A DNA stretch of 48,628 nucleotides, taken from positions 9,384-58,011 of the forward strand of contig JAYOFY010000001.1 in assembly GCA_038117465.1 (NCBI GenBank), written 5' to 3'. The notes below the pieces were generated by a model that was not told the DNA's origin, did not search any database, and worked only from the letters and a program-made list of their open reading frames with translations. Positions 18,318 through 48,256 of this stretch are shown one piece after another. Source of the DNA: Acholeplasmataceae bacterium. Its GTDB lineage: Bacteria; Bacillota_I; Bacilli_A; Acholeplasmatales; Acholeplasmataceae. The translations under genes were made by a program, and so were the position numbers. How positions within the stretch are numbered: the first letter of the stretch is position 1; each line of letters starts with the position of its first letter.

Positions 18318-19058
18318 TCACTTCATAAACGTGTTTAAGTATTCCATGAGTTTTTCTTTTTCGTTTAGTCTCACTAAAATACCTTCAATCGCAATCGAAA
18401 TATTTCCTGTTTCCTCAGAAACAACGACTGTTAAACTGTCTGTCACTTCACTTATCCCAAGTCCAGCACGGTGTCTTGATCCCATGGTAGATTCAACTTT
18501 TTCGTTTTCAGATAATACATAATAAGCCCCCGCACAAACAATCTCATCTCCACGAATGATCACTGCGCCATCGTGTAATGGTGTTAGCGGTGTAAATATA
18601 TTTACAAGCAATTCTTTACTTACTTTTGAATGAAGTAATACCGCACGTTCACTATACTGATCTAAGGTGTTATGTTTTTCAATTGTAATGAGTGCCCCTG
18701 TTTTTTGAGCAGATAAGTGCTGAACTGCATCATATATTTCTAATTTAGTAATGTCACTACCCATTTCAAAATCATCTTTTTTAGATTGTTTTTTCCAAGC
18801 TAAGTCAATCGCAAGTCTCATATCTGGAACAATCACGATAATATATACGAGTGGCAACCAATAAATAAGATAATCAAAAAGTGGCATTAATATTGGCAAT
18901 TGTAACCAATATACAAGTGCCGAAAGTGCATATATGAATGCAAAGACTGTGGATATCGCAACAAGCCTTTTACTTGAAGTGATGAATCTTAAAATAAATA
19001 AAGAAAAAATAAATATTAAATAAAATTCAATCACTAGGTTTAGTGTAATATTAGGCAT
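18318..19058 (-). CDS. cdaA: Diadenylate cyclase CdaA (DacA)
   Basis: 246 aa with three N-terminal TM helices and a DAC domain (HDGAVIIRG and GSRHRAGLGISE motifs). RBS AAGGAG. Confidence 0.9.
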   Translation of the reverse strand: MPNITLNLVIEFYLIFIFSLFILRFITSSKRLVAISTVFAFIYALSALVYWLQLPILMPLFDYLIYWLPLVYIIVIVPDMRLAIDLAWKKQSKKDDFEMGSDITKLEIYDAVQHLSAQKTGALITIEKHNTLDQYSERAVLLHSKVSKELLVNIFTPLTPLHDGAVIIRGDEIVCAGAYYVLSENEKVESTMGSRHRAGLGISEVTDSLTVVVSEETGNISIAIEGILVRLNEKEKLMEYLNTFMK

Positions 19059-36362: not shown

Positions 36363-37293
36363 TGTTTCTCACCTTTTCATTTAAATCATCTAGTAGTTTG
36401 TGTACATCTTCTAAGGTTTCAAGTGTTGCACCACATGCATGAAGATGTCCTCCACCACAGTATTTTTTCGCAACATCCACAATCGGAATATCTCGAGACC
36501 TTAATTCTGCAATATATTTGCCATTAGCATCTTCAGAAAAGCTACCCCATATCAACACTTCTTGAATACCCGCCATTAAATTGACCATCCCTCTACTAAT
36601 GGATTGAAAATCTTCTCCTGTTGATTGTATGAGTGCTTGAGAATTAATGCGATAGGCAACATTTTCTTTTGTTAGTTCAAATGATGAAAATTGATTTCTA
36701 ATTTGTTTTCTTCTAAGAGGTTCCGTATATAAATAGTCATATAAAGCTTTTATATCAGGTTCAAACTTAGAAACGTAACTTGCAAGCAAAAATGTTCTTT
36801 CAGGTTCCTTTAAATATAAAAACCTTCCTGAATCTGTCACCATACCTCCGTATAAATACGTTGCTGCCTCATTGGGTATATCAAGATTAAAACGCATTGC
36901 TATATCTATGATCATTTCACATGCTGAATTAAAACTTGTGTCTTTATAATAATGCGTCACATTTTCTATTGTTGTATTATTATCATGATGATCAATAATG
37001 ATTCTTTCTTTTGCTAATGTGTATCTGTCATCACTTACCATATGTGCAACAGCAACGTCTGTAATGATCACAAGTGCGTCTTGATAACAGGCATCATCAA
37101 TATCATCCATTTTTGCATGAAAACTCATGGTATTTAAATCACCAACTGCATAAATTGTTTTATCTGGATAAAGATGTTCTAATAATTTTTTCAACCCTAC
37201 TTGACTTCCGATTGCATCAAGATCGGGTCTTGCATGTCTATGGATAATTATGGTTTGAAAAGACGCGATGCGTTCAATGATTTCTTTAAACAT
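36343..37293 (-). CDS. DHH/DHHA1 phosphoesterase (NrnA-like), copy 1
   Basis: HARPDLDAIGS, ITDVA, IIDHHDN and GGGHLHACGA. Start placed at ATG 37293 (MFKEII), 5 nt after AGAGG. The track start 37299 is a GTG inside the RBS. Overlaps copy 2 by 20 nt. Confidence 0.85.
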   Translation of the reverse strand: MFKEIIERIASFQTIIIHRHARPDLDAIGSQVGLKKLLEHLYPDKTIYAVGDLNTMSFHAKMDDIDDACYQDALVIITDVAVAHMVSDDRYTLAKERIIIDHHDNNTTIENVTHYYKDTSFNSACEMIIDIAMRFNLDIPNEAATYLYGGMVTDSGRFLYLKEPERTFLLASYVSKFEPDIKALYDYLYTEPLRRKQIRNQFSSFELTKENVAYRINSQALIQSTGEDFQSISRGMVNLMAGIQEVLIWGSFSEDANGKYIAELRSRDIPIVDVAKKYCGGGHLHACGATLETLEDVHKLLDDLNEKVRNNEKHIK

Positions 37294-37340
37294 ATACACC
37301 TCTTGTAAAAAGATTATAATAGAATAACATATTTGATAAT

Positions 37341-37364
37341 AAAAAGCGAGTCGCCTCGCTTTTT
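37341..37364 (-). terminator. Rho-independent terminator ending the nuclease/ABC cluster
   Basis: The minus strand reads AAAAAGCGAG-GCGA-CTCGCTTTTT: 10-bp stem, 4-nt loop. It overlaps the stop codon of the 402-aa gene. Confidence 0.8.
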
Positions 37365-38571
37365 ATATCCAAGGTAATGGAAGATGTGGTGTCCATACTG
37401 GATTTTGCGTTGTATTTCTTCTTGTATCATAATTCCAATCAGGAGATTTTTCTCCATCTGGGTTATTTGGAAATCCTTTTGTTCCCCATCCGTTAACTTC
37501 AGCTCGATGCTGAGCAAATCTTAAAAATGTTAAATAGGGAACATTTTTATATGTAAGCAAATAATCATAGCTTTGATATTGAGATCCTACATCTTCAGAT
37601 AGACCTTCTGCAACAATCCAAAATTGTGACAGTGCGCCATTCACCCAAACAAGTCCTAAGTTTCTGCCATATCCTTCCTGAAGACTATTCCCTGGAATCG
37701 ATTGAACGCGAATGGTTTTGGTTGTTGGATCATTGAGTAAATATTCTTTATTATATTTACTTGCAACATATCCCCAAGGCTCTGCTGAAACATTCGCACC
37801 ATCAACTTCTGGTGTGTTAAGATAAAAATATCTCATCGAGCCACCTGGATACCCGTTCATTGCTTGAAAATATGCCGTATCCCCGTCTGCAACCCCCGTA
37901 TTATTCACAATGACTGCACCACCGAATCCTAATTCATCATTATTGGGGTCAACATATGGCATGTCTAAATATCTTTGTTCTAACTGTGGTCCTTGATATA
38001 GCTGTTCTAATGTTTTGATGTCATGATCATCGTTTTTAAGATAGTTAAACATATCTGGCAAATAGGCAATGAAATTATATTGATCATATTCTAATGATGC
38101 AACATAGTCTTCCTTGTAGCCTAGACGTATCATTGTCAGATCTACAGAGAAATTTATATCATACCCTAATAATCCAAATTGATCTATTTTTTGATTGTTA
38201 TAAAATAGTTCAATGACATCATTCCCATTAAACGGTAGGTTGCTATCAAATGAGAAATCAGTGTTTTCTAATAACAACGATTCTGTTGCATTGTTTCCAG
38301 AAATAACATAATAATTCGCTGGTTCTATTATGCCATTAAGTGTCATCGCGTGATCGCCACCCTCTGTTGTTGATCCATTATTATAAATTCTTATTTCGAC
38401 ATCATCAAGAGAAATTGCTTCATTAGTTGGATTATATAGTTCTATGGCATTATTAGACATAGATGTTGCATCAAATACTTTAGAAATAACCAAATTAGGG
38501 GTTTCTGTTTGACAGGCTTGAATCGTGATAAGACTCACGAATATGATAAACATTGTAATGACTTTTTTCAT
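37363..38571 (-). CDS. Surface lipoprotein: LTD-like domain + staphylococcal (thermo)nuclease domain
   Basis: 402 aa. Signal peptide with lipobox ITIQAC. LTD-like string NNAIELYNPTNEAISLDDVEIRIYNNGS. SNase strings VADGDTAYF, MRYFYLNTPE, EPWGYVASKY and YGRNLGLVWVNG. ATGA overlap with the upstream gene. Confidence 0.85.
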   Translation of the reverse strand: MKKVITMFIIFVSLITIQACQTETPNLVISKVFDATSMSNNAIELYNPTNEAISLDDVEIRIYNNGSTTEGGDHAMTLNGIIEPANYYVISGNNATESLLLENTDFSFDSNLPFNGNDVIELFYNNQKIDQFGLLGYDINFSVDLTMIRLGYKEDYVASLEYDQYNFIAYLPDMFNYLKNDDHDIKTLEQLYQGPQLEQRYLDMPYVDPNNDELGFGGAVIVNNTGVADGDTAYFQAMNGYPGGSMRYFYLNTPEVDGANVSAEPWGYVASKYNKEYLLNDPTTKTIRVQSIPGNSLQEGYGRNLGLVWVNGALSQFWIVAEGLSEDVGSQYQSYDYLLTYKNVPYLTFLRFAQHRAEVNGWGTKGFPNNPDGEKSPDWNYDTRRNTTQNPVWTPHLPLPWI

Positions 38572-39419
38572 GATTGCTCCTTTTTTACTTTGCGTATACG
38601 TTGCATGTTTTTGTGAAAAAATATGAAGTATGTGATGGGTATAACAATGATTATTTCAATCCCGATATATAGATATGTCATATAGGTATAGTCTGAAAAT
38701 GCCTCTATAATGAAATCATTGCTATATAAAGACGCCCTATCTGATACATTAGGTAATTGAAGTCTTTCTATGTTGACTATAGATAAATCCGCAACATTAT
38801 TTGGAGGAATCTCTAGATTTTTATCTACAAAAACATCTTCATGTATCATGGTCGTTGTTACCACATCATCGATGGTTGTTGGATAAGAAATAGCGATACG
38901 TTGAACCCTTGCTTTATTATCTACAACGTATCGTTGATCAAGTGCATACATGTGCATACTATCATCATATAGTTGAATTAATGATTCATTGAACACACTT
39001 TGAGTAAATCCTTCTGGCGTGGTTTCAAATGTAATCTCAATGTTTAAAGAAAGTGCGTCTTCATCAACGAATGCAGTCTCATCTGTGTTTTCATATTGTG
39101 TGACAATAAAAACAAGTTCATATTTATAATCAGAACTATTTTTGTATAATAAAACAGAATATATTTCTAAATCATAGCTCACATTTGAATGATTGACTGA
39201 ATGCGTGATTAATGGTGATTCTTGAATATAAATGTGGTATTCTCCTTGTGTATTAGCAATAAGTGTTGCAGATACCAAGTCTTTTGAATCATCATAAATG
39301 TTTTCTTTTAAATCATCTAAATACGTCACGGTTTGGTTCGCTCTTGCATACCCCGAAACAATAAACGTAACAAGACCAATAAATAATATATATGATGTAA
39401 TTCCAAAGATTTTACCCAT
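38568..39419 (-). CDS. Hypothetical bitopic membrane protein (283 aa), translationally coupled to the nuclease gene
   Basis: N-terminal TM (ITSYILFIGLVTFIVSGYA) and C-terminal TM (YLYIGIEIIIVIPITYFIFF), followed by a basic tail. No motif recognised. Confidence 0.65.
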   Translation of the reverse strand: MGKIFGITSYILFIGLVTFIVSGYARANQTVTYLDDLKENIYDDSKDLVSATLIANTQGEYHIYIQESPLITHSVNHSNVSYDLEIYSVLLYKNSSDYKYELVFIVTQYENTDETAFVDEDALSLNIEITFETTPEGFTQSVFNESLIQLYDDSMHMYALDQRYVVDNKARVQRIAISYPTTIDDVVTTTMIHEDVFVDKNLEIPPNNVADLSIVNIERLQLPNVSDRASLYSNDFIIEAFSDYTYMTYLYIGIEIIIVIPITYFIFFHKNMQRIRKVKKEQS

Positions 39420-39446
39420 CTTTATTCCTCGTTTTTGTGTATGTTT

Positions 39447-39476
39447 ATTATACGTTTTTTTAGCCTATATTACAAA
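39447..39476 (-). promoter_or_regulatory. Candidate internal promoter TTTGTA-18 nt-TATAAT for the 283-aa and nuclease genes
   Basis: Minus strand: TTTGTA (39471-39476), an 18-nt spacer containing an A7 run, TATAAT (39447-39452). GAGGAA RBS before ATG 39419. Confidence 0.4.
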
Positions 39477-39477
39477 T

Positions 39478-39510
39478 AAAAAAAGGATAGAGTTGTTCTA
39501 TACTTTTTTT
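39478..39510 (-). terminator. Weak AT-rich hairpin after the 1207-aa gene (possible partial terminator)
   Basis: An A7 / T7 run flanks a 5-bp core ataga-gttgt-tctat with one mismatch. Low predicted stability. Confidence 0.35.
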
Positions 39511-39525
39511 TACTAATTTATATTC

Positions 39526-42500
39526 TTATACAGTATGTGAACCTAGGTTGTCAAAAGTATTTTGTGGATATACAATCCATTCTGTTGGATCCCAAACTGT
39601 TGAACCGGATGTAACTCCTGGTTTTCTAACAAGTGTATATTCATTTGTAAAACCATCTCCGACTGACCAGTTAGAACCTGGATCTTCTCCAATTATACCA
39701 AATACATCAATGATTTCACCATTTTTGGTTATTGCCAATGCATCGTCGCCATTAAAGAATACAACAGCGTCTCCATCTGCATAAGCTTGTACTTCATCAT
39801 ATGTTCCGGTACCTTCAAACGTATCAGTAACAATGACAAAAGTTTCTCCGGCACCTAAAGTTATACCTGTTAAATCAAAAGATTTTGAGGCCGTTGGAGA
39901 ACCGTTTGAATATATGTGGACCATATATCCAGTGAGATCTAAAGCAGCATCTGTTGGATTGTATAATTCAATGGCTTTATTGTTTGAGGAACCCTCAACA
40001 TATTCAGAAATGAAAAGGTCTGGTGTTGAATTAGATATGACAACTTTTTCAATCGCATCTGCACTTGCAATACGTAATCTTAAAGAGTTAGACCAGTATG
40101 CACCTGCAACAACATTAATAATGTCTCCAGCTTCAAGTTCAGTTGGTAATCCTACCGGATCCCCTGTTCTTGAATCCCAACGAATAAAGAATGTTGCGGT
40201 TCCGTTTGTTACTTCAATATCTAGGTTACCGTAGTTGTCATATGCAATGCTTACGACTTCTAATTCTTTAAACTCGACTAATTGTGCTGTATATGCACTT
40301 AAATCTGTCACATCCATAGCTGTTACATCTACCGGTGTTGGGAAGTCAAATCCTGGTACTGATATGATGTTAACAAACGCGACGTTTGAAACTTGTTCTA
40401 ATCCGTTATACGCACCACGTTTTGCTTGAATTTCAATCGCATATCCACCTAAATATGCAGCTAAAATTGCATCTTTTTCTGCACTTGCCCCGCTACCTAA
40501 GTAAATGTCTACAGCACCTGTATCATCTTGTAGCAAGAAATTGTTGCCATCAATATTCATTGTGACAAAACCTCTTACTGTAACAATTGTATCTGCAGCC
40601 TCAGAAAGTGCTGCAGAAATAGTCATTAGAGGAACCGTGAAATCTCCTTCTGCATCCACTCTTAATCTTGCACCATTTGACCAATATACACCTACAACAG
40701 CATCAACCACATCGCCAACTTCTAGTGTTAGTGGGAATCCTACAGGGTCTCCAGTTCTTGAGTCCCAACGAATGTCAACGGTTTCGCTACCTAAAGTAAA
40801 TTCAAAATCAACATTTCCATAACTATCTGTTGCTTGGCTTACATAAACAAGTCCTTCTAAGCGAATTTGTTGTGCTATGTAATCAGATAAATCAGCAACA
40901 CTTGTGACAACGGTAGGCATAGGGAATGGAGTTCCAATGCTATCTAACAATTCAATTGCTGAAATACTAGATAATTGTTCTAATCCGTTGTAAGCACCGC
41001 GTTCTGCAGTAATTTGAACAGCATAACGTCCATGGTATGCACGTAATAATGCATCTTTTGTTGGACTTGCGCCACCACCTGCATAAATATCAATTGCACC
41101 AGTACCATCTTGAATGAAGAAGTTATTACCATCAACATTCATTGTGATGTACCCTTCAACAGTAACCACAGTGTCTGCTGCTTCAAGTAATGCGTTTGCA
41201 ATCGTCATTGGAGGTACTGAAACATCATCTGCTGAATCAATTCTTAATCTTGGTGAATTACTATAGTAAACACCTGCAACAACATTAATGATATCACCGG
41301 CTTCTAGTTCTGTAGGGAATCCAGCTGGATCTCCTGTTCTTGAATCCCAACGAATTTCAACGGTTTCGCTACCCATCGTAGCAGTAATGTCTAAGTTTCC
41401 ATATGAATCATATGCTATACTTACGACTTCTAAGTTTCTAAATCTTACAAGTTGTGCAACTAAACCTTCAAGTTCAGAAAGTTCAGTAACATCAACAATA
41501 ACAGGGAATTCAATTTCTGGTTCTGGAACAACTGAAACACTTGTAATGTTAGATAATTGTTCTAATCCCCTAAATGCCCCTCTTTCACCAACAACTTCAA
41601 CAAGTTCACCGCTTGCTAATGCTGCTAAAATTGCTGTTTTTTCATCACTATCACCAGGCATATATAAATCTAATGCGCCAGTTTCATCTTGTAATAAGAA
41701 GTTGCTTCCATCAACATTCATTGTGACATATCCTTGAACTACAGCAAGTTCACCATCAGCAATTAATAATGCTTCAGAAATTGAAACCACTGGTGAAACA
41801 CCAACTTTGACAGTAAATGTTTTCACAACTGCAGTTGCGGATCCTAACGAAACAGTTGCAGTAAGTTCTACGGTGACTTGTCCATCTGTTGGTACTGTAA
41901 CAGCACCTGTTGTAGGATTAATCACAGCTTCATTGTCAGATGTCCATGCAATCGTTGTGCCGTTCGTACCAGTTGTTGGTAATGTGAGTGTTGTATCTTC
42001 TAAAATATTGAAAGGAACTGATAATGCATTACTGTCTACTTCAATCGCTTCTTCATCAGAAAGGCTCGCAACGATACCATCTGCACCACCTACATAATAG
42101 AAAGCGAATGCTTTATTATTTGATCTAAATGTATAAATTAAAATATCAATAGTAATAACTTTTCCATCATATGCTTTAATTTCAGCCATATTAAACGTAT
42201 TGTAATACAACATTAAACCAACTGTTGGGTCATCGGTAGTGCCTGGGACCCATGTTTGTGTTGTATCATAATTCGTTGGCATTAAATACGTATTATAGTT
42301 AGATGTATCGCCAGGAATGACATAAACACGACCAGTCACTGTTGCGTATACTGTTTCAAACGCACCACTAGATGCGTCACCATAAGCATATTGATCTTCT
42401 TCTGCATCTAATAATCCATTAACATATGCTGCAATGTCAGTAATTGTTTCTTTTGTTGGCATTTCTGGTGTTGCAGTTGTATCTTCTTCAGCTGTCCAAG

Positions 42501-43149
42501 AGGTAATTTCCCAAATACCAAAATACCATTCTGTTGTTCCTGAAACATCATATACTTTTCCAACTTCTAAAGATGATACATCACCACCATACATTTGGAT
42601 AATACCTGAACCGTCATATGCAAACGCTGAATCAGATCCTTTACCAACAATGGTTAAGTTTTCAAGTGATACTTGATATGTACCATCATATGCCACATCA
42701 TTTAACGCAAGTACGTCTGCGATGTTTTCAATTGTGACTTCTTCAACTTCACTTGCTTTAACAGTAAGCTCAACATCCCATGAAAGCGTAAGTTCTTGGG
42801 TTGCATCGAGTTCTGATGCGATCGTAAGCGTTGCTGTTAGTGTAACTTCTGCATCCGGTTCACCAAATGCAGGACGGTTTACAGTCACCACTGCTAAGTT
42901 ATTTGCTGGTTGTCCAACTGTGACAACCCCAGGATTATCTGAAGACCATGTTGCTTCAACACCACCAACAAGTAATGTGGGTACGGTAAAGTTACCGGTG
43001 ATGTTTGAAGGGTCTGAAATTAATCCATTTAAAGTATCATACGCACCTTGGAGTGTTGCTTGTGCTGGATCTACCGTTTCGGTATCTTCACACGCAACTA
43101 AACCAAATACGAGTGCAAATGATGCTACTAATAAAAGTAATTTTTTCAT
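39526..43149 (-). CDS. Large surface lipoprotein: two Ig-like segments, three tandem OB-fold-like repeats, C-terminal LTD-like domain
   Basis: 1207 aa. Signal peptide with lipobox FGLVAC. Ig-like strings (TVPTLLVGGVEATWSSDNPGVVTV...VTLTATL; LTLPTTGTNGTTIAWTSDNEAVINP...VELTATV). Repeats at residues 455-1037. C-terminal NNKAIELYNPTDAALDLTGYMVHIYSNGS. GGGAGA RBS. Confidence 0.85.
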   Translation of the reverse strand: MKKLLLLVASFALVFGLVACEDTETVDPAQATLQGAYDTLNGLISDPSNITGNFTVPTLLVGGVEATWSSDNPGVVTVGQPANNLAVVTVNRPAFGEPDAEVTLTATLTIASELDATQELTLSWDVELTVKASEVEEVTIENIADVLALNDVAYDGTYQVSLENLTIVGKGSDSAFAYDGSGIIQMYGGDVSSLEVGKVYDVSGTTEWYFGIWEITSWTAEEDTTATPEMPTKETITDIAAYVNGLLDAEEDQYAYGDASSGAFETVYATVTGRVYVIPGDTSNYNTYLMPTNYDTTQTWVPGTTDDPTVGLMLYYNTFNMAEIKAYDGKVITIDILIYTFRSNNKAFAFYYVGGADGIVASLSDEEAIEVDSNALSVPFNILEDTTLTLPTTGTNGTTIAWTSDNEAVINPTTGAVTVPTDGQVTVELTATVSLGSATAVVKTFTVKVGVSPVVSISEALLIADGELAVVQGYVTMNVDGSNFLLQDETGALDLYMPGDSDEKTAILAALASGELVEVVGERGAFRGLEQLSNITSVSVVPEPEIEFPVIVDVTELSELEGLVAQLVRFRNLEVVSIAYDSYGNLDITATMGSETVEIRWDSRTGDPAGFPTELEAGDIINVVAGVYYSNSPRLRIDSADDVSVPPMTIANALLEAADTVVTVEGYITMNVDGNNFFIQDGTGAIDIYAGGGASPTKDALLRAYHGRYAVQITAERGAYNGLEQLSSISAIELLDSIGTPFPMPTVVTSVADLSDYIAQQIRLEGLVYVSQATDSYGNVDFEFTLGSETVDIRWDSRTGDPVGFPLTLEVGDVVDAVVGVYWSNGARLRVDAEGDFTVPLMTISAALSEAADTIVTVRGFVTMNIDGNNFLLQDDTGAVDIYLGSGASAEKDAILAAYLGGYAIEIQAKRGAYNGLEQVSNVAFVNIISVPGFDFPTPVDVTAMDVTDLSAYTAQLVEFKELEVVSIAYDNYGNLDIEVTNGTATFFIRWDSRTGDPVGLPTELEAGDIINVVAGAYWSNSLRLRIASADAIEKVVISNSTPDLFISEYVEGSSNNKAIELYNPTDAALDLTGYMVHIYSNGSPTASKSFDLTGITLGAGETFVIVTDTFEGTGTYDEVQAYADGDAVVFFNGDDALAITKNGEIIDVFGIIGEDPGSNWSVGDGFTNEYTLVRKPGVTSGSTVWDPTEWIVYPQNTFDNLGSHTV
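40039..40626 (-). repeat. Intragenic tandem repeat copy 3 (residues 842-1037)
   Basis: 196 aa beginning MTISAALSEAADTIVTVRGFVTMNIDGNNFLLQDDTGAVDIY and containing IRWDSRTGDPVGLPTELEAGDIINVVAG. Confidence 0.9.
40627..41208 (-). repeat. Intragenic tandem repeat copy 2 (residues 648-841)
   Basis: 194 aa beginning MTIANALLEAADTVVTVEGYITMNVDGNNFFIQDGTGAIDIY and containing IRWDSRTGDPVGFPLTLEVGDVVDAVVG. Confidence 0.9.
41209..41787 (-). repeat. Intragenic tandem repeat copy 1 (residues 455-647)
   Basis: 193 aa beginning VSISEALLIADGELAVVQGYVTMNVDGSNFLLQDETGALDLY and containing IRWDSRTGDPAGFPTELEAGDIINVVAG. Confidence 0.9.
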
Positions 43150-43174
43150 TCATTTCTCCCTTTTTCTTTTTTTA

Positions 43175-44614
43175 TTAATTCGTTATAAAATCGAATGATT
43201 CTTGATATTGTTGATCAATATAAGCATCTAAATCTTCATCATTGAGTGCATCATACGCTAAAATCTTAACGAGCAGTGCACCAACTTCTGAACGTGTTTT
43301 AGAGCTTTGATTAAATACTGCTGATGTAAAGAAAATATCTTCATTTTCTAAGAAAATTTCAATCGCTTCTTTGACAAGTTTTGCAACCGCTTCATCTATA
43401 GTTGTTGGATTTTCTTTAATACCAGCAACATAGTTTGTCCATAGTTCTGTTTCATATGCTGAATAGCGAATCGGTGCATATCCTGAAGGAATACTAAATT
43501 CAGCTGTTTTTTCTGGTTGTAACATGAACTTGGCAAATAACCATGCAGCAATCATGCGTTGTTCATCATTAGATTTGAATAAATTAATGTTTGGTCCTTG
43601 TTGAATTTGGAAACGTGATTCTGCTGTAAATCCAGGAAGTGGTGCAACGCCTACACGATATCCTGCATCAAATACATCTTGAGGCATACCGACATATGCA
43701 TAACGGGTACCACCTGTAGAGCCGACATACATATATGTTTTAGGGTTCGCAACTTTCATAGAGTCTGAATTATATGCATCACCATTAAGTGCACGTGTAA
43801 TCATGAGTCCTTTATCTACTTTATCTTTAAAGTAACGGACCATATCTTTCGATAAATCATTGTTGAATTGAACTTCTCCGCGTCCAGTTTCAGCATTGTA
43901 TCCTGTATAAGGAGCGTTAAATTGCTTAGATCCCGTTATAAAAAGGTTATCTTCTGAATCATAGCCAAACGGAAATGATTCTGGTTCTCTAGCTTTAATA
44001 TCTTCAGCAATTGCAAACACTTCATCCCAAGTTGTAGGCACTTCATAGTTGTGTTCTTCAAAGTATGTTTCATTGTAGAAGAATGCTTCTGAAGATTTTG
44101 TAAACGGTAACGATAGAATCGTGCCTTCATTATCATAACTTTGACCTTCGGCCCATAGTCCAGGTAAGAAATCGGCAATTTCTTCTTCTGTAAACCCAAT
44201 ATTAGGGTTATTGATAAAGTTATTGAGTGCAAGCGGTGCTTTTGCAGCAGCATATCTTGCAATATGATCTGGATAACTTTCAGCAATATCTGGTTGGTTT
44301 CCTGCTGGAATTGCAAGCGCAATCTTATCAGACAACGCTGTATAGTCACCTGCCGCTTTTTCTTCAATCACTGTAATATTTGGGTAGATTGTTTCAAATT
44401 CTTCAATCCAACCTTGAACAAGTGCTTGAGATTGTGCACCCATTCGGTGCCAAAATGTGATCGTGATGTTTTGTGTTGTATCAAGATCAGCATCTTCAGA
44501 TAACTCATACCACTCTACTAAACGCGCAGCTTCAGTACCTGTACGTTCACCACCACATGCAGCAAGCGACACTGCCGCAGTGAGTGCTAAAAATAATAAA
44601 AATATTTTTTTCAT
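43175..44614 (-). CDS. ABC transporter solute-binding lipoprotein (sugar/CUT1-type by size and context)
   Basis: 479 aa with signal peptide and lipobox VSLAACGG. Directly downstream of two MalFG-type permeases. Confidence 0.8.
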   Translation of the reverse strand: MKKIFLLFLALTAAVSLAACGGERTGTEAARLVEWYELSEDADLDTTQNITITFWHRMGAQSQALVQGWIEEFETIYPNITVIEEKAAGDYTALSDKIALAIPAGNQPDIAESYPDHIARYAAAKAPLALNNFINNPNIGFTEEEIADFLPGLWAEGQSYDNEGTILSLPFTKSSEAFFYNETYFEEHNYEVPTTWDEVFAIAEDIKAREPESFPFGYDSEDNLFITGSKQFNAPYTGYNAETGRGEVQFNNDLSKDMVRYFKDKVDKGLMITRALNGDAYNSDSMKVANPKTYMYVGSTGGTRYAYVGMPQDVFDAGYRVGVAPLPGFTAESRFQIQQGPNINLFKSNDEQRMIAAWLFAKFMLQPEKTAEFSIPSGYAPIRYSAYETELWTNYVAGIKENPTTIDEAVAKLVKEAIEIFLENEDIFFTSAVFNQSSKTRSEVGALLVKILAYDALNDEDLDAYIDQQYQESFDFITN

Positions 44615-44639
44615 TCCCTTTCTCCTTTTAATTTAAATA

Positions 44640-45581
44640 TTATCCTTTTACACCACTTCTAGAAATTCCAGACATGATGTATTTTCTAAAAAAGATAAAC
44701 ATAAGTAATAATGGCACAGTCACAATCACAGTTGCTGCCATTTGATAGTTGATCAAGACTCTACCAACACCGGTAGCATTTTGATCAGTAAATGATGATC
44801 TAAGCCATGTTGTTACAAGTTTATATTTTTCGTTTGCAACAATATCTGGCCAGATATAGGCATTCCAGGCACCCATAAGTTTTAATATCACGATGGTAAT
44901 GATAGAGCTTTTCGCCATTGGAACCATAACGGTTCTCAAGTACTTAAAGTCTTTACATCCATCTACTTTGGCTGCATAATAAAGTTCATTAGGAATTTGT
45001 TTAAATGTTTGTCTTAATAAATAAATATGAAAAATAGAAATAAAGAACGGGATGATCATCGCCAAATAAGATCCAACACCGTCATCATTGACCCATCCCA
45101 ATCTAGATACGGTAATATAATTAGAAATAATCAACATTTCGCCCGGAATCATCATCGTTGCAAGCAATATCGTAAAAATGAGTTCTCTTCCTTTAAAGTT
45201 GAGTCTTGCAAGTGCAAAAGCAACCAATATTGAGAAAAATGTTCCACCAACAGTTGAAAAAACGGCAACAACTAGTGTATTCGTTAAGTATCTTGTAAAT
45301 GTGATACCACCTTGTTGTGCTGAAGAATATAAGAATGTGGATACATAGTTTTGTGGGCTAAATTGTTTTGGAAACAAACTTGTATTCAACGAGTTAAGAA
45401 CTTCGTTACTGGATTGAAAAGAAACATTAAGCATCCAGTAAAATGGCACAATAACAACAAATGCCATAACAAATAAGAAAAAATATGTCATCGATTTGTT
45501 GACAACAAATAGTGCGCGTTGTTCTTTTAATTTTCTGTTTTCACGGTAATGACCGTTTGGATTCATGTACTGTATCATCAT
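44640..45581 (-). CDS. ABC transporter permease (MalG/UgpE-like)
   Basis: Multi-TM with EAA-like loop LYYAAKVDGCKDFKYLRTVMVPM. Start placed at ATG 45581 or 45578 (MMIQYMNPNG), just after AAGGAG. The track start 45617 overlaps the upstream gene. Confidence 0.85.
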   Translation of the reverse strand: MMIQYMNPNGHYRENRKLKEQRALFVVNKSMTYFFLFVMAFVVIVPFYWMLNVSFQSSNEVLNSLNTSLFPKQFSPQNYVSTFLYSSAQQGGITFTRYLTNTLVVAVFSTVGGTFFSILVAFALARLNFKGRELIFTILLATMMIPGEMLIISNYITVSRLGWVNDDGVGSYLAMIIPFFISIFHIYLLRQTFKQIPNELYYAAKVDGCKDFKYLRTVMVPMAKSSIITIVILKLMGAWNAYIWPDIVANEKYKLVTTWLRSSFTDQNATGVGRVLINYQMAATVIVTVPLLLMFIFFRKYIMSGISRSGVKG

Positions 45582-45588
45582 AATCTCC

Positions 45589-46515
45589 TTAGTAGTGAAC
45601 CCGTTTTTTAGATACATTTAAATTAATAAATGTGAAGATAAGAATAATGATAAATAGAATCACTGCAGAAGCAGCACCTCTTGAATAATACGATATAAAG
45701 TTACCATCCAACCCTACGTTCCCAATTTTGTCGTACACGTAGGCAACAGCGGTCCAACGGTTTCTATCTAATAATCTTCCTGTTGTTCCTGCAACTGCAA
45801 GTACACTCTCGTATGCTTTAAAAGCACCAATAAACGATGTAATTAAAATATAACTTATGAGTGGAGATAGTAGTGGAATGGTGATGTGTCTTAAAATTCT
45901 TCTTTTTGGTGTGGAATCAATTTTTGCTGCATCATAATATTGTTTTGATATATTTTGAAGACCGCCTATAAATACTAAAATTTTAAATGGTAACCCGTTC
46001 CATATCGAATAAATTAGAACAACAAACATCCAACTAGAACGTTCTGCAGTCACACCTACCCAGTCTCTACTGATGCCAAAGAGTGTATTAATTAACCCTT
46101 CTGCCATTAATCCTTCTGTAAGCGGGTGAGAAAACATAACGCTAAAAACCATCCCAATGGCAAGGCCGTTTGTTACATAGGGTAAAAAGAAAATGGTTTG
46201 AAATATTTTTTGAAGTGGTTTGATCGAATTCAACGCTACTGCAATTAATAACGCTAACCCAGTTGATATTGGTACAGAAATAAATACTAAAATCATCGTG
46301 TTACCGATAGCGGTAATAAAATACGGATCATTAAAAATTGCGCCATATGCGGCTAAGTCTAAATACGACCCGAATGTATCGGTCATAGGGTTATATTGAG
46401 AAAAGATTGAAATTAAAATCGTTTTTACTAGCGGATAAAAGGTAAATATCGTTAGTAAAAGTAACGGAAACGCAAGATAAAACCACGCTTTCCTGTCAAT
46501 TTTGTTTTCTAACAT
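45589..46515 (-). CDS. ABC transporter permease (MalF/UgpA-like)
   Basis: 308 aa, multi-TM, with EAA-like loop YYDAAKIDSTPKRRILRHITIPLL. TAATG overlap with the ATPase gene. Confidence 0.87.
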   Translation of the reverse strand: MLENKIDRKAWFYLAFPLLLLTIFTFYPLVKTILISIFSQYNPMTDTFGSYLDLAAYGAIFNDPYFITAIGNTMILVFISVPISTGLALLIAVALNSIKPLQKIFQTIFFLPYVTNGLAIGMVFSVMFSHPLTEGLMAEGLINTLFGISRDWVGVTAERSSWMFVVLIYSIWNGLPFKILVFIGGLQNISKQYYDAAKIDSTPKRRILRHITIPLLSPLISYILITSFIGAFKAYESVLAVAGTTGRLLDRNRWTAVAYVYDKIGNVGLDGNFISYYSRGAASAVILFIIILIFTFINLNVSKKRVHY

Positions 46516-48062
46516 TAAGCAATTCTCCTACCTTCTGCTTCATCAAACACGAAAGTTTTGTTTTCTTTTAATTTAAAAGATACCTTTCCTTTTAAATCTT
46601 TTACATTCACATCATCATTTAATATGATTCTAAATGTTGGTGCAGTAGATGCTTTGTGTGAAGACACAAGTGCAAAATCACGACCGATGGTTTCAACAAA
46701 TTGTGCATCAACCGTTAGAGGGCCGTTTTTATCTAAAATATACCCTTCTGGTCTCACACCAAGAATGACATTTGTATCTTTTTCTTTCGCAAGTTTAGAA
46801 GATTCAAATACAACTTGATCATCAATGAGCACTTGTCCTTTTTTAAGTTTTGCTTGGTAAAGGCCAATAGGCGGCGTTCCTAAGAATTTAGCTGAAAATA
46901 AATTAGCTGGTTGGTCATAAACTGCTTGAGGTTGACCTTTTTGTTGTTCTTCACCAAAATTCATAAGCACAATCTCATCTGAAATTGACATTGCCTCTTC
47001 TTGATCGTGTGTAACAAAAATCGTAGTAATGCCCGTCTCTCTTTGAATACGTTTGATTTCTTCTCTTGTTTGTAGTCGCAAACGCGCATCTAAATTAGAT
47101 AGTGGTTCGTCTAAAAGCAACACTTGTGGTTTTTTCACAAGCGCTCTTGCAATTGCAACACGTTGTTGTTGTCCACCAGAAAGTTGTGCTGGTTTTTTAT
47201 CAAGTTGATCTTCAATCCCAACAAGTTGCGCCATTTCTAGCATACTTGCTTCCATTTGTGCTTTATAATTTGTTTTTTTCGCTTTTAAAACCCCTGCTAC
47301 ACTTTCGGGAGCAACTGCATTAGGGTTCGTTTTTAACGATTCTTTATATACTTTTTCTTTTTCTAAATATGTCTTTTTTAAGTTAGAAAAGAGTGTTTTA
47401 ACATCTTCTTGAACAATTTCTGAACGTTCTTTTTCATATTGGTCAGAAAGTTCTTCGCGTTTGTTTTTCAGTTCTAATTTAAGTGCGTTTATTTTTTCTT
47501 TATTCGCATCCTTTAGTGTTTTATCTTGCTTATATTCTACTTTTAAACTTTGAATGGCATTATTAATCTCATTGGATGCATCGTTGTCTAATCGTTTATA
47601 TTTGTTTTGAAGACTTTCTAGTGCGTCTACAAAATCAAAGTAGCGCTTTGCCTCTTCAGGAGATTCAATGAAAAACGCTTCTCTGTAAGCTTTTTCAATA
47701 GACACTTTTCTTAAATTCATATTTTCTAAAGGAAACAGAATGTTTTTTCTTACGGTCATATGTGGATACAATGCGTAGTTTTGAAACACAAGACCAATGC
47801 CTCTTTTTTCAGCATCAAGCTCTGTCACTTCAGTTTCACCGAAAAAGATCTTACCTTTTGTAGGTGCTAATAATCCTGCAATCATGTAAAGTGTTGTTGA
47901 TTTTCCACAACCAGAAGGACCTAGAAGTCCAACAAGTTTTCCTGATGGGATTTCAACGTCAAAATCATAGACCGCATGTGTAATTTTACCTGTTTTTTTA
48001 TCAACAAAATCTTTGTGTAGGTTTTCTAATTTAATCGATAAACTTTTATGTGTTGTTTGCAT
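46515..48062 (-). CDS. ABC transporter ATP-binding protein (MalK/UgpC-like) with large internal coiled-coil insertion
   Basis: 515 aa with Walker [11 protein letters not shown]-loop [14 protein letters not shown], signature [15 protein letters not shown] and Walker [12 protein letters not shown]. Has a C-terminal MalK-type regulatory domain. ~145 extra K/E-rich residues lie between the Q-loop region and the signature. GGAG RBS. Confidence 0.92.
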
Positions 48063-48081: not shown

Positions 48082-48120
48082 AAAAAAATAAAGAGCACTT
48101 AACATTTTGTTATGCGCTCT
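48082..48120 (-). terminator. Terminator-like hairpin + U tract immediately upstream of the ABC ATPase RBS
   Basis: The minus strand reads AGAGCGC...GTGCTCT (7 bp including one G-U) extended by 4 inner bp, followed by TTATTTTTTT. The GGAG RBS lies 10 nt further on. Confidence 0.45.
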
Positions 48121-48228
48121 AAAAAATATTTAAATCAATTTAATATTAAAAAATTGCCAAGTAGTTTTCGTTGTTGAAGTTTTTTTAAAATTGTACACAC
48201 TTTTCAATTTAAAATTCCTCGCAACTCC

Positions 48229-48256
48229 ATTATATATCAAATCAAACTTTAATCAA
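48229..48256 (-). promoter_or_regulatory. Candidate promoter of the ABC/lipoprotein cluster TTGATT-16 nt-TATAAT
   Basis: Minus strand: TTGATT (48251-48256), 16-nt spacer, TATAAT (48229-48234). This implies a ~160-nt leader. Confidence 0.5.

What the first reader, a model, noticed from the sequence alone, without database searches (positions are those of the whole stretch)
37363..48062. ABC importer linked in one cluster to an OB/LTD lipoprotein and an LTD-SNase lipoprotein: candidate surface DNA capture, degradation and uptake system
Seen in sequence: eight co-directional minus-strand genes. Spacings range from 1-4-nt overlaps (TAATG, ATGA) to 25 nt, apart from one 106-nt gap (39420-39525). 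In order they are an ABC ATPase, two MalFG-type permeases, a 479-aa solute-binding lipoprotein, and a 1207-aa lipoprotein. Then comes a 283-aa bitopic membrane protein whose stop overlaps the start of a 402-aa lipoprotein, followed by a strong terminator (37341-37364). The 402-aa protein joins an LTD-like segment (NNAIELYNPTNEAISLDDVEIRIYNNGS) to a staphylococcal-nuclease fold (DGDT, RYFYLNTPE, EPWG, YGRNLG). The 1207-aa protein has the same LTD signature (NNKAIELYNPTDAALDLTGYMVHIYSNGS). It follows three repeats whose first lobe (VTVEGYITMNVDGNNFFIQDGTGAIDIY) resembles the OB folds attached to secreted nucleases of the YhcR/ExeM type. No catalytic motif is visible in that protein. Established knowledge: LTD and OB modules accompany extracellular bacterial nucleases. 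As far as I recall, several Mycoplasma species have an SNase-like membrane nuclease gene next to a sugar-type ABC transporter with an insertion-bearing ATPase. That arrangement has been proposed to link nuclease action to precursor import. Inference: here the arrangement appears expanded into a division-of-labour system, with a non-catalytic DNA-binding lipoprotein, a nuclease lipoprotein, a membrane adaptor and an importer. It would scavenge nucleic-acid building blocks. I do not know of a described system with this triple-OB + LTD partner.
Basis: partly seen in the sequence, partly recalled or inferred. Interest (0 to 1): 0.75.

Follow-up and report, generated by a model that had tools for sequence, protein, structure and literature searches.

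The report
Acholeplasma DNA-scavenging and import gene cluster
This is a real, strongly conserved gene cluster in a wall-less bacterium (Acholeplasmataceae) that most likely captures DNA at the cell surface, cuts it and imports the fragments, but the same kind of locus has already been described in Candidatus Izemoplasmatales and in Mycoplasma.

Summary
There are seven (not eight) co-directional minus-strand genes at 37363-48062. They encode a Ugp/MalK-type ABC importer with a 147-aa insertion in the ATPase, a lipoprotein binding protein and a 1207-aa non-catalytic lipoprotein (two Ig-like domains, three OB-OB repeats, LTD). They also encode a small membrane protein with two TM helices (not bitopic), translationally coupled to an LTD-SNase lipoprotein whose catalytic residues are intact.

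The linkage survives four gene-order variants in more than 30 Acholeplasmatales and Izemoplasmatales loci. The cluster is orthologous to the published 'DNA-degradation loci' of Ca. Izemoplasmatales (Wasmund 2021). That paper already proposed that the large OB/LTD protein holds DNA at the cell. The cluster also parallels the Mycoplasma MslA/P80-SNase-ABC operon.

New here:
- The binding protein belongs to the phosphodiester-ligand branch. Its closest solved relative binds a dinucleotide, and the UgpB glycerol clamp is absent.
- Two NrnA nanoRNase genes usually follow the cluster. This suggests import of di- or oligonucleotides.
- The repeats resemble HIN-200/RPA tandem OB DNA binders.
- A conserved leader (small ORF, U-run, terminator) resembles pyrBI-type UTP-sensing attenuation.

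All functions are inferred.

The parts
48229..48256 (-). Promoter-like site (TTGATT-16-TATAAT) of the ABC operon, just downstream of the asnS stop
   Evidence: 10 of 12 matches. The equivalent TTGAAA-17-TATAAT is seen in L009 and L012.
48130..48207 (-). Leader small ORF. RBS GCGAGGAA, TTG start, 25 codons (MKSVYNFKKTSTTKTTWQFFNIKLI). It contains a T6 run at 48148-48153.
   Evidence: A comparable small ORF lies next to a terminator in 17 related leaders. A T-run of 6 or more sits 12-27 nt before the terminator in 15 of the 17, against about 4% expected by chance.
48083..48120 (-). Terminator/attenuator hairpin plus T-tract. It lies between the leader ORF stop and the ATPase RBS.
   Evidence: -13.3 kcal/mol, z -3.8; its position is conserved. 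No Rfam family matches.
46515..48062 (-). ABC ATPase, UgpC/MalK type, 515 aa. A 147-aa charged insertion (residues 120-266, window 47265-47705) sits in the helical subdomain.
   Evidence: ABC_tran in two stretches. (UgpC 327 bits). (alignment with the 350-aa L005 ATPase defines the insertion).
45589..46515 (-). Permease 1 (UgpA/MalF type)
44640..45617 (-). Permease 2 (UgpE/MalG type). The real start is probably at about 45578, giving 312 aa as in homologs.
43175..44614 (-). Solute-binding lipoprotein, 479 aa, CUT1 family, in the phosphodiester-ligand branch
   Evidence: 7C0F dinucleotide binder 109 bits, UgpB 100 bits, sugar binders 65 bits or less; 7C0F binds U3G; the phosphate-binding Tyr and Ser are conserved and the Trp clamp is absent; 31% identity, E 8e-58, to the Izemoplasma locus SBP.
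39526..43149 (-). 1207-aa non-catalytic lipoprotein. Order: aBig_2, two OB-like domains, aBig_2, three OB-OB repeats, then a C-terminal LTD. Repeat coordinates: 41209-41796, 40624-41208, 40030-40623. LTD coordinates: 39529-40029.
   Evidence: AF2 pLDDT 89.7. HIN-200, LEF-3, RADX and Teb1 matches; relatives of the repeat unit.
39447..39510 (-). Intergenic weak A/T hairpin (39478-39510) and promoter-like site (39447-39475) upstream of the last two genes
   Evidence: z -1.6, which is weak.
38568..39419 (-). 283-aa membrane protein with an N-terminal and a C-terminal TM helix, a beta-sandwich ectodomain and a basic cytoplasmic tail. Its stop overlaps the SNase start. It belongs to no known family.
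   Evidence: no Pfam hit; pLDDT 82; no significant fold match. It is always adjacent to the SNase gene.
37363..38571 (-). 402-aa lipoprotein: LTD (residues 22-133), a conserved linker, the SNase domain (about 215-366) and a conserved Trp/Pro-rich C-terminal tail
   Evidence: catalytic residues invariant; invariant tail residues.
37341..37364 (-). Strong intrinsic terminator ending the cluster
35430..37299 (-). Two tandem NrnA-like DHH/DHHA1 genes (36343-37299 and 35430-36362) with their own promoter. They are the proposed cytoplasmic finishing step. The link to the cluster is weaker than for the other parts.
   Evidence: B. subtilis NrnA, E 1e-74; one-to-one orthologs, in the same order, in the Izemoplasma locus; adjacency is lost in some genomes.

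Best explanation
The cluster is a cell-surface machine for foraging nucleic acids. It is the Acholeplasmataceae ortholog of the Izemoplasmatales 'DNA-degradation locus' and a counterpart of the Mycoplasma MslA/P80-SNase-ABC operon.

Proposed steps:
1. The 1207-aa lipoprotein uses its array of tandem OB folds and its LTD to hold extracellular DNA or RNA at the membrane. This step is inferred.
2. The LTD-SNase lipoprotein cuts the nucleic acid into 3'-phospho mono-, di- and oligonucleotides. It is made together with its two-TM membrane partner and probably positioned by it. The active site is shown to be conserved. Activity and the partner's role are inferred.
3. The UgpB/DnBP-like lipoprotein binds a phosphodiester-containing product, most likely dinucleotides or very short oligonucleotides. 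It delivers the product to the Ugp/MalFGK-type importer. The ligand class is inferred from homology and binding-site residues.
4. In the cytoplasm, the two NrnA nanoRNases encoded just downstream reduce the imported fragments to mononucleotides. This step is inferred.
5. Expression of the importer and capture genes appears to be controlled by a translation-coupled leader terminator with a conserved U-run. By analogy with pyrBI, this would raise expression when UTP is low. This step is inferred.
For: Domains and folds:
- Pfam and NCBIfam calls.
- SNase catalytic residues D21, R35, E43 and R87 are invariant in 125 homologs.
- The AF2 model of the large protein has pLDDT 89.7 and no catalytic domain.
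- Its best PDB matches are HIN-200 dsDNA binders (E 2e-12) and the ssDNA binders LEF-3, RADX and Teb1.
- Relatives of the repeat unit co-occur with LTD, nucleic-acid OB domains, PLD nuclease domains and one PnrA nucleoside-binding protein. None co-occurs with a glycoside hydrolase.

Linkage:
- The genes are linked in all informative loci, across four arrangements.

Homology to the published Izemoplasma locus:
- SBP, E 8e-58.
- The two NrnA, E 2e-86 and 2e-89, in the same order.
- SNase, E 6e-10.
- Large protein, E 4e-5.
- Ca. Izemoplasma incorporated 13C from DNA in stable-isotope probing (PMC8289736).

Binding protein:
- 7C0F, the U3G dinucleotide binder, is the top PDB hit.
- The phosphate-contacting Tyr and Ser residues are invariant. 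The UgpB Trp clamp and Glu66 are replaced.

Other:
- Mycoplasma precedent (PMC3585158, PMC4045577, PMC9740415).
- Leader statistics.
Against: - No experiment exists for any protein of this family.
- The capture protein is extremely acidic (net -128, pI 4.05; each repeat has 9-10 K+R against 27-34 D+E). This is unlike HIN or RPA DNA-binding surfaces.
- BOF-family OB folds have no proven nucleic-acid ligand.
- LTD function is unknown, and the LTD is dispensable for ExeM activity in vivo (PMC6085458).
- The SNase Ca2+ ligand D40 is Asn in most members.
- The SBP profile scores UgpB almost as high as the dinucleotide binder (100 vs 109 bits).
- The Mycoplasma homologs are annotated as a glycerol-3-phosphate system (PMC3178575).
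- Wasmund et al. predicted nucleosides or nucleobases as the cargo.
- NrnA adjacency is lost in several genomes. It may reflect general synteny or housekeeping turnover of nanoRNA and c-di-AMP, since a DAC cyclase lies at 18318-19058.
- Orthology to Mycoplasma P80/MslA was not tested by sequence.
Confidence: 0.72

Rival explanations
1. The same foraging machine, but the importer carries nucleosides, nucleobases or mononucleotides rather than di- or oligonucleotides. The NrnA genes are only syntenic housekeeping neighbours.
For: - Wasmund et al. called the homologous transporters 'probable nucleoside or nucleobase transporters' (PMC8289736).
- The Mycoplasma model has single nucleotides being transported (PMC4045577).
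- The NrnA pair is separated from the cluster, or absent within 10 kb, in at least nine loci.
- NrnA has its own promoter behind a strong terminator.
- A DAC c-di-AMP cyclase in the window gives the DHH enzymes another job.
Against: - No nucleotidase or phosphatase is encoded in the cluster to make nucleosides.
- The SBP is not of the PnrA/Bmp nucleoside-binding type. It sits with phosphodiester binders and keeps the phosphate-contacting residues.
- The NrnA pair is retained next to the locus across two orders, in the same order.
Confidence: 0.15
2. The ABC system is a Ugp-type importer of glycerol-3-phosphate or glycerophosphodiesters (phospholipid head groups, or phosphorus scavenging). Its neighbours are surface proteins with a separate role.
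For: - The best NCBIfam matches are UgpC, UgpA, UgpE and UgpB.
- UgpB scores 100 bits against the SBP profile.
- M. pneumoniae MPN134-136, next to the nuclease Mpn133, are annotated UgpCAE (PMC3178575).
Against: - All scores lie far below the equivalog cut-offs.
- The UgpB Trp169/Trp172 glycerol clamp and Glu66 are replaced by D, F and P, within the invariant YPDH and YDS..F motifs.
- No GlpQ gene is in the cluster.
- The SNase and the OB/LTD protein stay linked to the importer through four rearrangements.
Confidence: 0.07
3. The 1207-aa protein is an adhesin or a binder of a matrix or other non-nucleic-acid polymer. It may also be a nuclease-independent surface shield. It is co-located with the importer only because surface-protein genes are co-regulated. 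In that case the 'capture' role is wrong, although nuclease plus importer may still work together.
For: - The protein is extremely acidic.
- aBig_2 domains also occur in glycanases such as AbnA.
- Relatives of the repeat unit are mostly large non-catalytic surface proteins, some with T9SS tails, SdrD_B or SpaA adhesin-type domains, and one lectin.
- Close Acholeplasma homologs show no Pfam LTD or BOF hits.
Against: - The top fold matches are all nucleic-acid-binding tandem OB proteins.
- The LTD is shared with the adjacent nuclease and with ExeM.
- The protein is conserved immediately after the SBP in every locus.
- The SNase domain itself is acidic too (pI 5.0). Acidity is therefore a trait of all exported proteins here and not evidence against DNA contact.
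Confidence: 0.06

Closest known systems
'DNA-degradation loci' of Candidatus Izemoplasmatales (Wasmund et al. 2021, Nat Microbiol, PMC8289736)
   Same: - Homologous SBP (31% identity, E 8e-58).
- Two NrnA genes in the same order (42-44% identity).
- An SNase lipoprotein.
- A large secreted OB-fold + LTD protein placed after the SBP.
- The same hypothesis: the large protein holds DNA at the cell while nucleases digest it and the ABC system imports the products.
   Different: - The Izemoplasma large protein is reported to carry a C-terminal endonuclease I domain. The window protein has no catalytic domain and has three OB-OB repeats.
- In the window, the LTD is fused to the SNase.
- A two-TM partner gene is coupled to the SNase. 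This was not discussed for Izemoplasma.
- The ATPase has a 147-aa insertion.
- No phosphate transporter is adjacent.
- There is one SNase here rather than several.
Mycoplasma nuclease-ABC 'nucleotide transporter' operon. It comprises the P80/P81/MslA lipoprotein, an SNase lipoprotein (MAG_5040, MbovNase, Mhp379, Mpn133, MG_186, MHO_0730) and an ATPase plus two permeases.
   Same: - An SNase-type lipoprotein lies next to a sugar/Ugp-type ABC importer.
- The ATPase is unusually long and split (MBOVPG45_0309 is 2103 nt).
- The SBP-like lipoprotein, in the case of MslA, binds ss and ds DNA.
- The bind-cut-import model has been published (PMC4045577, PMC3585158, PMC9740415).
- The gene order SN-ATPase-permeases is seen in L039 and L047.
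   Different: - Mycoplasma has no OB/LTD giant lipoprotein, no LTD on the nuclease and no two-TM partner.
- Sequence-level orthology to P80/MslA was not tested here.
Thermus thermophilus dinucleotide-binding protein of an ABC transporter (PDB 7C0F; Chandravanshi et al. 2021, FEBS J)
   Same: - It is the closest solved relative of the window SBP (E 2e-17 with the single sequence, 2e-30 with the family profile).
- Both belong to the CUT1 branch with phosphate-containing ligands.
- The phosphate-contacting Tyr and Ser are conserved.
   Different: - Similarity is distant. The alignment covers about 350 residues and identity was not computed.
- The window protein is a lipoprotein with a longer C-terminal part.
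- Its ligand is unknown.
ExeM/NucH and YhcR extracellular nucleases
   Same: - LTD and OB modules occur on a surface-exposed nucleic-acid-degrading system.
- The LTD regions of both window proteins match ExeM residues 22-175.
- In ExeM, the OB region is essential for activity (PMC6085458).
   Different: In ExeM, the binding and catalytic (EEP) modules are on one polypeptide. Here they are split between a non-catalytic lipoprotein and an SNase lipoprotein. No EEP domain is present.
HIN-200 domains (AIM2, IFI16, p202, p204) and RPA-like tandem OB arrays
   Same: Each ~195-aa repeat is a pair of OB folds. These proteins are the top Foldseek matches (E down to 2e-12, probability 1.0).
   Different: - There is no detectable sequence relationship.
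- TM-scores are low (0.2-0.45) because the domain orientations differ.
- The window repeats are strongly acidic, whereas HIN DNA-binding surfaces are basic.
E. coli pyrBI UTP-sensitive leader-peptide attenuator
   Same: A leader ORF runs up to a terminator placed just before the first structural gene. A U-rich tract lies about 12-27 nt upstream of the hairpin.
   Different: There is no sequence homology, and the operon is a salvage/import operon rather than a biosynthetic one. UTP dependence is untested, and Phe-codon sensing cannot be excluded.

Membership tests
CUT1-type (MalFGK/Ugp) ABC importer | MalK/UgpC-type ATPase with Walker A, Q-loop, signature motif and a C-terminal regulatory domain | tested here: met
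   ABC_tran E 5e-37. UgpC NF008653 scores 327 bits. OB_MalK gives a weak hit. The flanks of the insertion are 57-74% identical to an insertion-free homolog.
CUT1-type (MalFGK/Ugp) ABC importer | Two MalF/MalG-type permeases and a cluster-D/family-1 solute-binding protein | tested here: met
   BPD_transp_1 twice. The best equivalogs are UgpA and UgpE. SBP_bac_8 E 5e-38.
UgpB (sn-glycerol-3-phosphate binding protein) | Trp169/Trp172 clamp and Glu66 that hold the glycerol moiety (E. coli numbering) | tested here: not met
   In the family profile alignment, W169 aligns with D, W172 with the invariant F225, and E66 with the invariant P115. The UgpB sequence was recalled from memory. It scored 98.7 bits, against 97.9 for PDB 4AQ4. 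The NCBIfam UgpB score of 50.8 is far below the cut-off of 411.
Phosphate/phosphodiester-ligand branch of CUT1 SBPs (UgpB, GPC-binding protein, dinucleotide-binding protein) | Two Tyr and two Ser that coordinate the phosphate (PMC12718374) | tested here: met
   Y91, S174, S299 and Y379 are invariant in 7 cluster SBPs. They align with the corresponding UgpB and 7C0Y residues. Profile scores are 100-109 bits for this branch and 65 bits or less for sugar binders. Equating these positions with the residues named in the paper is my own inference.
Staphylococcal nuclease (SNase/thermonuclease) family | Catalytic Arg35, Glu43 and Arg87, and Ca2+ ligands Asp21 and Asp40 | tested here: met
   R247, E255, R303 and D231 are invariant in 125 homologs. 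The D40 position is N in 105 and D in 20. PDB SNase hits reach E 1e-4.
Staphylococcal nuclease (SNase/thermonuclease) family | Pfam PF00565 gathering score | tested here: not met
   18.9 bits against a cut-off of 21 for the window protein. Some close homologs and the Izemoplasmatales-type versions do pass.
Staphylococcal nuclease (SNase/thermonuclease) family | Ca2+-dependent nuclease activity | not testable with these tools
   This needs an enzyme assay.
Izemoplasmatales 'DNA-degradation locus' (PMC8289736) | Homologous SBP, SNase, large OB + LTD protein and two NrnA genes, all co-located | tested here: met
   blastp against the published sequences: SBP 8e-58, NrnA 2e-86 and 2e-89, SNase 6e-10, large protein 4e-5. 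Intermediate loci L004, L005 and L007 bridge the two.
Izemoplasmatales 'DNA-degradation locus' (PMC8289736) | Endonuclease I domain on the large protein, and an adjacent phosphate transporter | tested here: not met
   The 1207-aa protein has no nuclease domain. The downstream genes are NrnA x2, MgtC and MnmE.
Mycoplasma MslA/P80-SNase-ABC operon | An SNase lipoprotein gene adjacent to a Ugp/sugar-type ABC importer whose ATPase is long and split | tested here: met
   compared with PMC3585158 and PMC4045577.
Mycoplasma MslA/P80-SNase-ABC operon | Sequence homology of the SBP or the large lipoprotein to MslA/P80 | not tested
Pfam at E<=10 gave only SBP_bac_8 for the SBP.
ExeM/NucH extracellular nuclease | EEP (endonuclease/exonuclease/phosphatase) catalytic domain | tested here: not met
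   NF033680 and NF033681 match only the LTD and OB parts. Their scores are far below the cut-offs.
HIN-200 domain | Sequence-family membership (Pfam HIN) | tested here: not met
   There is no Pfam HIN hit. The resemblance is structural only.
pyrBI-type UTP-sensitive attenuator | Leader ORF ending at a terminator, with a U-rich pause region upstream | tested here: met
pyrBI-type UTP-sensitive attenuator | Read-through depends on low UTP and on leader translation | not testable with these tools
   This needs in vitro transcription or reporter assays.

The most novel reading that the evidence does not exclude
The Ugp-like ABC system of this conserved module may be the long-sought importer of phosphorylated nucleic-acid fragments in Mollicutes. 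The module spans Izemoplasmatales and Acholeplasmatales, and possibly Mycoplasma. The proposed features are:
- Its lipoprotein SBP binds dinucleotides or very short oligonucleotides produced by the surface SNase.
- Two dedicated NrnA nanoRNases finish digestion inside the cell.
- The operon is switched on by a previously undescribed pyrBI-like attenuator, in which a leader peptide, a U-run and a terminator sense low UTP.
- The HIN-like OB-OB array, although highly acidic, is a cation-bridged extracellular DNA tether.
Probability: 0.3. Interest if true: 0.7.

Novelty: new member of a known kind. Interest (0 to 1): 0.45.

Why it matters
Wall-less bacteria with small genomes depend on outside sources for nucleotides. 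How phosphorylated nucleic-acid fragments cross their single membrane is still unproven. This cluster shows that one module is conserved from free-living Izemoplasmatales through Acholeplasma, with a clear parallel in pathogenic Mycoplasma. The module consists of a capture protein, an SNase, a Ugp-like importer and NrnA.

Acholeplasma laidlawii is cultivable and carries the locus (L029), so the model can be tested directly. Two results go beyond the literature:
- The binding protein groups with the only known dinucleotide-binding SBP and lacks the glycerol clamp. This gives a specific prediction for the ligand.
- A conserved leader suggests nucleotide-responsive attenuation.

Both results matter for eDNA turnover in the environment and for understanding the Mycoplasma nuclease operons linked to virulence.

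Tried and rejected
- Rfam, at gathering and at permissive thresholds, found no riboswitch or other known RNA in the window or in the leader.
- The 283-aa protein has no Pfam or NCBIfam family. Its good AF2 model gave no significant PDB match (best E 0.017, TM below 0.25). Its function therefore rests on gene linkage alone. phmmer did not connect it to the 264-274-aa two-TM proteins of L005 and L007, which share only topology and position.
- The papers on MslA, Mhp379 and the M. pneumoniae lipoprotein families (PMC3754236, PMC1855908, PMC1540031) are not held in the library. The Mycoplasma comparison therefore rests on secondary citations.
- A self-BLAST of the whole 1207-aa protein returned no off-diagonal hits. 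Segment-wise BLAST was needed to find the repeats.
- Pfam on isolated segments gave nothing useful. The segments were one repeat, the N-terminal OB-like region, the SNase linker and the SNase tail. DUF5689 was only marginal (E 0.18), although 12 of 45 relatives of the repeat carry it.
- The carbohydrate-binding reading was rejected. The only glycanase hit (AbnA) aligns to the aBig_2 Ig-like domain.
- A DNA-uptake-for-transformation reading was set aside without a dedicated search. No competence-type family appeared among the Pfam or NCBIfam hits of the cluster genes or of the 23 other window ORFs that were scanned. Eleven ORFs of at least 100 aa, mostly small, were not scanned.
- The extreme acidity of the capture protein was considered as a refutation of DNA binding. 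It was not accepted as decisive, because the SNase and the SBP of the whole family are acidic too.

Full report
**Observation**

The region 37363-48062 carries seven minus-strand ORFs, not eight:
- ABC ATPase, 46515-48062, 515 aa
- Permease 1, 45589-46515
- Permease 2, 44640-45617 (the real start is probably near 45578, giving 312 aa as in homologs)
- Solute-binding lipoprotein, 43175-44614, 479 aa
- A 1207-aa lipoprotein, 39526-43149
- A 283-aa membrane protein, 38568-39419
- A 402-aa lipoprotein, 37363-38571

There is a 1-nt overlap, a 4-nt overlap, two 25-nt gaps and one 106-nt gap. The terminator at 37341-37364 is strong (-16.3 kcal/mol, z -6.7). The 106-nt gap holds only a weak A/T hairpin (z -1.6). 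That hairpin is followed by a promoter-like TTGTAA-17-TATAAT. The last two genes may therefore also be transcribed on their own.

The window uses the standard genetic code. Its closest relatives are Acholeplasmataceae genomes and MAGs.

**Domain content**

- The 402-aa protein has an LTD (E 1.4e-11) and an SNase domain. The SNase domain scores below the Pfam threshold (18.9 vs 21 bits). It still aligns with S. aureus nuclease structures (E 1e-4).
- In an alignment of 125 family members, the catalytic residues D21, R35, E43 and R87 are invariant. The Ca2+ ligand D40 is Asn in 105 members and Asp in 20. The active site is therefore under selection.
- The 1207-aa protein has two aBig_2 Ig-like domains, BOF/OB hits and a C-terminal LTD (2.6e-17). 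This LTD, like the one on the nuclease, matches the N-terminal part of the ExeM nuclease.
- It contains three tandem ~195-aa repeats at 49-59% identity (residues 452-647, 648-842 and 843-1040).
- An AlphaFold2 model of the mature protein is confident (pLDDT 89.7). It consists only of small beta domains, with no room for a catalytic domain.
- Foldseek against the PDB returns tandem-OB nucleic-acid binders at the top: p204 HINab bound to dsDNA (E 2e-12), other HIN-200 domains, baculovirus LEF-3, RADX and Teb1. The only glycanase hit (AbnA) aligns to the aBig_2 domain.
- Each repeat is thus a pair of OB folds, not one OB plus an unknown lobe.
- A profile of the repeat finds 597 representative proteins at E<=0.001. 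In a sample of 45, the accompanying domains are aBig_2 (27), DUF5689 (12), nucleic-acid OB (11), LTD (9), T9SS tails (6), PLD-type nuclease domains (2) and one PnrA nucleoside-binding protein. No glycoside hydrolase appears.

The 283-aa protein is not bitopic. It has an N-terminal and a C-terminal TM helix around a beta-sandwich ectodomain, plus a basic cytoplasmic tail. It matches no known family or fold.

The ATPase carries a 147-aa charged insertion (residues 120-266) in its helical subdomain. This was defined by alignment to an insertion-free homolog.

**Conservation of linkage**

Gene-context look-ups and a scan of one genome per species gave more than 50 related loci. I searched their ORFs with the window proteins. 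Wherever at least about 5 kb of flank is available, the LTD-SNase gene lies next to the ABC genes and the large lipoprotein gene. No counter-example was found. Species with the locus include A. laidlawii, A. oculi, A. hippikon and Haploplasma modicum.

Four arrangements occur:
- the canonical order, as in the window
- a divergent form, with the ABC-to-large-protein block facing the two-TM/SNase pair (L006, L024, L033, L045)
- the SNase placed in front of the ATPase (L039, L047), which is the order seen in Mycoplasma
- the SNase followed by the two-TM gene (L005, L007)

The small two-TM gene stays adjacent to the SNase gene in all of them. This argues for a functional pair.

Two NrnA-like DHH/DHHA1 genes follow the cluster in the window (36343-37299 and 35430-36362; best PDB match B. 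subtilis NrnA, E 1e-74) and in most loci. They are displaced or absent within 10 kb in at least nine loci.

**Comparison with what is known**

Two bodies of literature already describe this kind of system.

*Mycoplasma.* An SNase lipoprotein gene (MAG_5040, MbovNase, Mhp379, Mpn133, MG_186, MHO_0730) sits in an operon with an unusually long ABC ATPase, two permeases and the lipoprotein P80/P81/MslA.
- P80 is modelled as the solute-binding protein.
- MslA binds ss and ds DNA.
- The published model has it delivering oligonucleotides to the nuclease, with the products imported by the ABC system (PMC3585158, PMC4045577, PMC9740415).

*Ca. Izemoplasmatales.* Wasmund et al. 2021 (PMC8289736) described 'DNA-degradation loci' containing SNase-type nucleases, an ABC system, two 'oligoribonuclease A' genes and a large secreted protein with OB-fold, LTD and endonuclease I domains.
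- The ABC system's binding protein is annotated as glycerol-3-phosphate-binding.
- The authors proposed that the large protein holds DNA close to the cell during digestion.
- Ca. Izemoplasma took up 13C from DNA in stable-isotope probing.

I compared their published sequences with the window proteins:
- SBP: 31% identity, E 8e-58
- The two NrnA: 44% and 42% identity (E 2e-86 and 2e-89), pairing one-to-one in the same order
- SNase: E 6e-10
- Large protein: E 4e-5

Loci L004, L005 and L007 are intermediate forms. The window cluster is therefore the Acholeplasmataceae ortholog of a published locus type.

**What this analysis adds**

1. *Ligand class.* The SBP's best solved relative is PDB 7C0F and its variants (E 2e-17 with the single sequence, 2e-30 with a family profile).
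- 7C0F is the Thermus thermophilus protein that binds the dinucleotide uridylyl-3'-5'-phosphoguanosine (SI Table S5 of PMC12718374).
- UgpB follows closely (100 vs 109 bits). Sugar binders trail at 65 bits or less.
- In the profile alignment, Y91, S174, S299 and Y379 are invariant in the cluster SBPs. By my reading, these correspond to the phosphate-coordinating Tyr and Ser residues.
- The UgpB glycerol clamp is not kept: W169 aligns with D, W172 with F, and E66 with P. The UgpB sequence was recalled from memory and validated by its score.
- This points to a phosphodiester ligand that is not G3P.

2. *A finishing step.* SNase chemistry yields 3'-phospho mono- and dinucleotides (established knowledge). 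Two NrnA genes lie nearby. Together these suggest that di- or short oligonucleotides are imported and then finished in the cytoplasm.

3. *A conserved leader.* It consists of a promoter (48229-48256), a 25-codon ORF with a strong RBS (48130-48207) containing a T6 run, and a terminator hairpin (48083-48120; -13.3 kcal/mol, z -3.8) directly before the ATPase RBS.
- Seventeen related leaders show such a small ORF next to a terminator.
- The ORF stop lies within -12 to +9 nt of the stem in 14 of the 17.
- A T-run of 6 or more ends 12-27 nt before the stem in 15 of the 17, against about 4% expected by chance.
- The run falls in different reading frames, so it looks like a nucleotide-level feature.
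- This resembles the pyrBI UTP-sensitive attenuator. If real, it would tie expression to nucleotide supply. Rfam has no matching family.

**Caveats**

- Nothing here is experimentally shown.
- The capture protein is extremely acidic (net -128, pI 4.05), unlike known DNA-binding OB surfaces. All exported proteins of the family are acidic too, including the SNase. Cation-bridged binding therefore remains possible.
- BOF-type OB folds and LTDs have no proven ligand, and the LTD is dispensable for ExeM in vivo (PMC6085458).
- The M. pneumoniae homologs are annotated as a G3P system (PMC3178575).
- Wasmund et al. predicted nucleosides or nucleobases as the cargo.
- The NrnA link could be plain synteny, or housekeeping turnover of nanoRNA and c-di-AMP. 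A DAC cyclase lies at 18318-19058.
- Homology to MslA/P80 was not tested.

**Verdict**

The cluster is real and conserved, and it is coherent with surface nucleic-acid capture, degradation and import (confidence about 0.7 for the overall function). It is a new member of a known kind of system.

Interest is moderate (0.45), for three reasons:
- The concept is already published.
- The ligand prediction and the putative attenuator are specific and testable.
- A. laidlawii offers a cultivable host in which to test them.

Noticed in passing
window 48083-48256 (minus strand); equivalent leaders in L002, L004, L007, L009, L012-L014, L018, L020, L022, L023, L026, L029, L030, L048, L052: A conserved leader precedes the ABC operon. 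It consists of a promoter, a 23-41-codon ORF with a strong RBS and a terminator hairpin just before the ATPase RBS. The ORF stop abuts or enters the hairpin. In 15 of the 17 leaders a T6-T8 run lies 12-27 nt before the hairpin, against about 4% expected by chance. The run falls in varying reading frames. The layout looks like pyrBI-type translation-coupled, possibly UTP-sensing, attenuation. No Rfam family matches.
   Followed up: partly
window 35430-37299 (minus strand): Two tandem NrnA-like DHH/DHHA1 paralogs lie directly after the cluster's terminator. Each pairs one-to-one, in the same order, with the two 'oligoribonuclease A' genes of the Izemoplasma DNA-degradation locus. The adjacency is lost in some Acholeplasma genomes.
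   Followed up: partly
window 47265-47705 (ATPase residues 120-266): A 147-aa Lys/Glu-rich insertion, probably helical, sits in the helical subdomain of the ABC ATPase. It is present in Acholeplasma-type loci (ATPases of 488-550 aa) and absent from the Izemoplasmatales-type loci L004, L005 and L007 (about 350 aa). In those loci the SBP is instead about 160-185 aa longer and, in L004 and L005, carries a Bact_surface_Ig-like domain. Its function is unknown.
   Followed up: partly
window 37366-37470 (SNase residues ~366-402): The nuclease ends in a tail with many invariant Trp, Pro and Gly residues (P368, G373, E374, P377, D378, W379, T388, P391, W393, P395, P400, W401). It matches no known domain. 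It is a candidate docking peptide for the two-TM partner or for the large lipoprotein.
   Followed up: no
window 18318-19058 and 16568-18148 (minus strand): A diadenylate cyclase (DAC domain) gene and a PAS-GGDEF protein gene are present. The organism therefore has cyclic-dinucleotide signalling. This gives the NrnA-like DHH enzymes an alternative housekeeping role in pApA or c-di-AMP turnover.
   Followed up: no
window 4095-5273 next to 5368-7389 (minus strand): A short (392-aa) UvrD/PcrA-like helicase ORF lies directly beside a full-length 673-aa UvrD/PcrA gene. Its helicase N- and C-domain matches are partial. It may be a truncated paralog or a remnant.
   Followed up: no
window 8856-10484 (minus strand): A 542-aa ORF lies between gltX and tsaD and has no Pfam match at E<=1e-5.
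   Followed up: no
L036, L037, L042 (GTDB records): Three contigs that carry the Acholeplasma-type cluster are titled 'Staphylococcus' MAGs in the public records. This looks like mislabelling or mis-binning.
   Followed up: no
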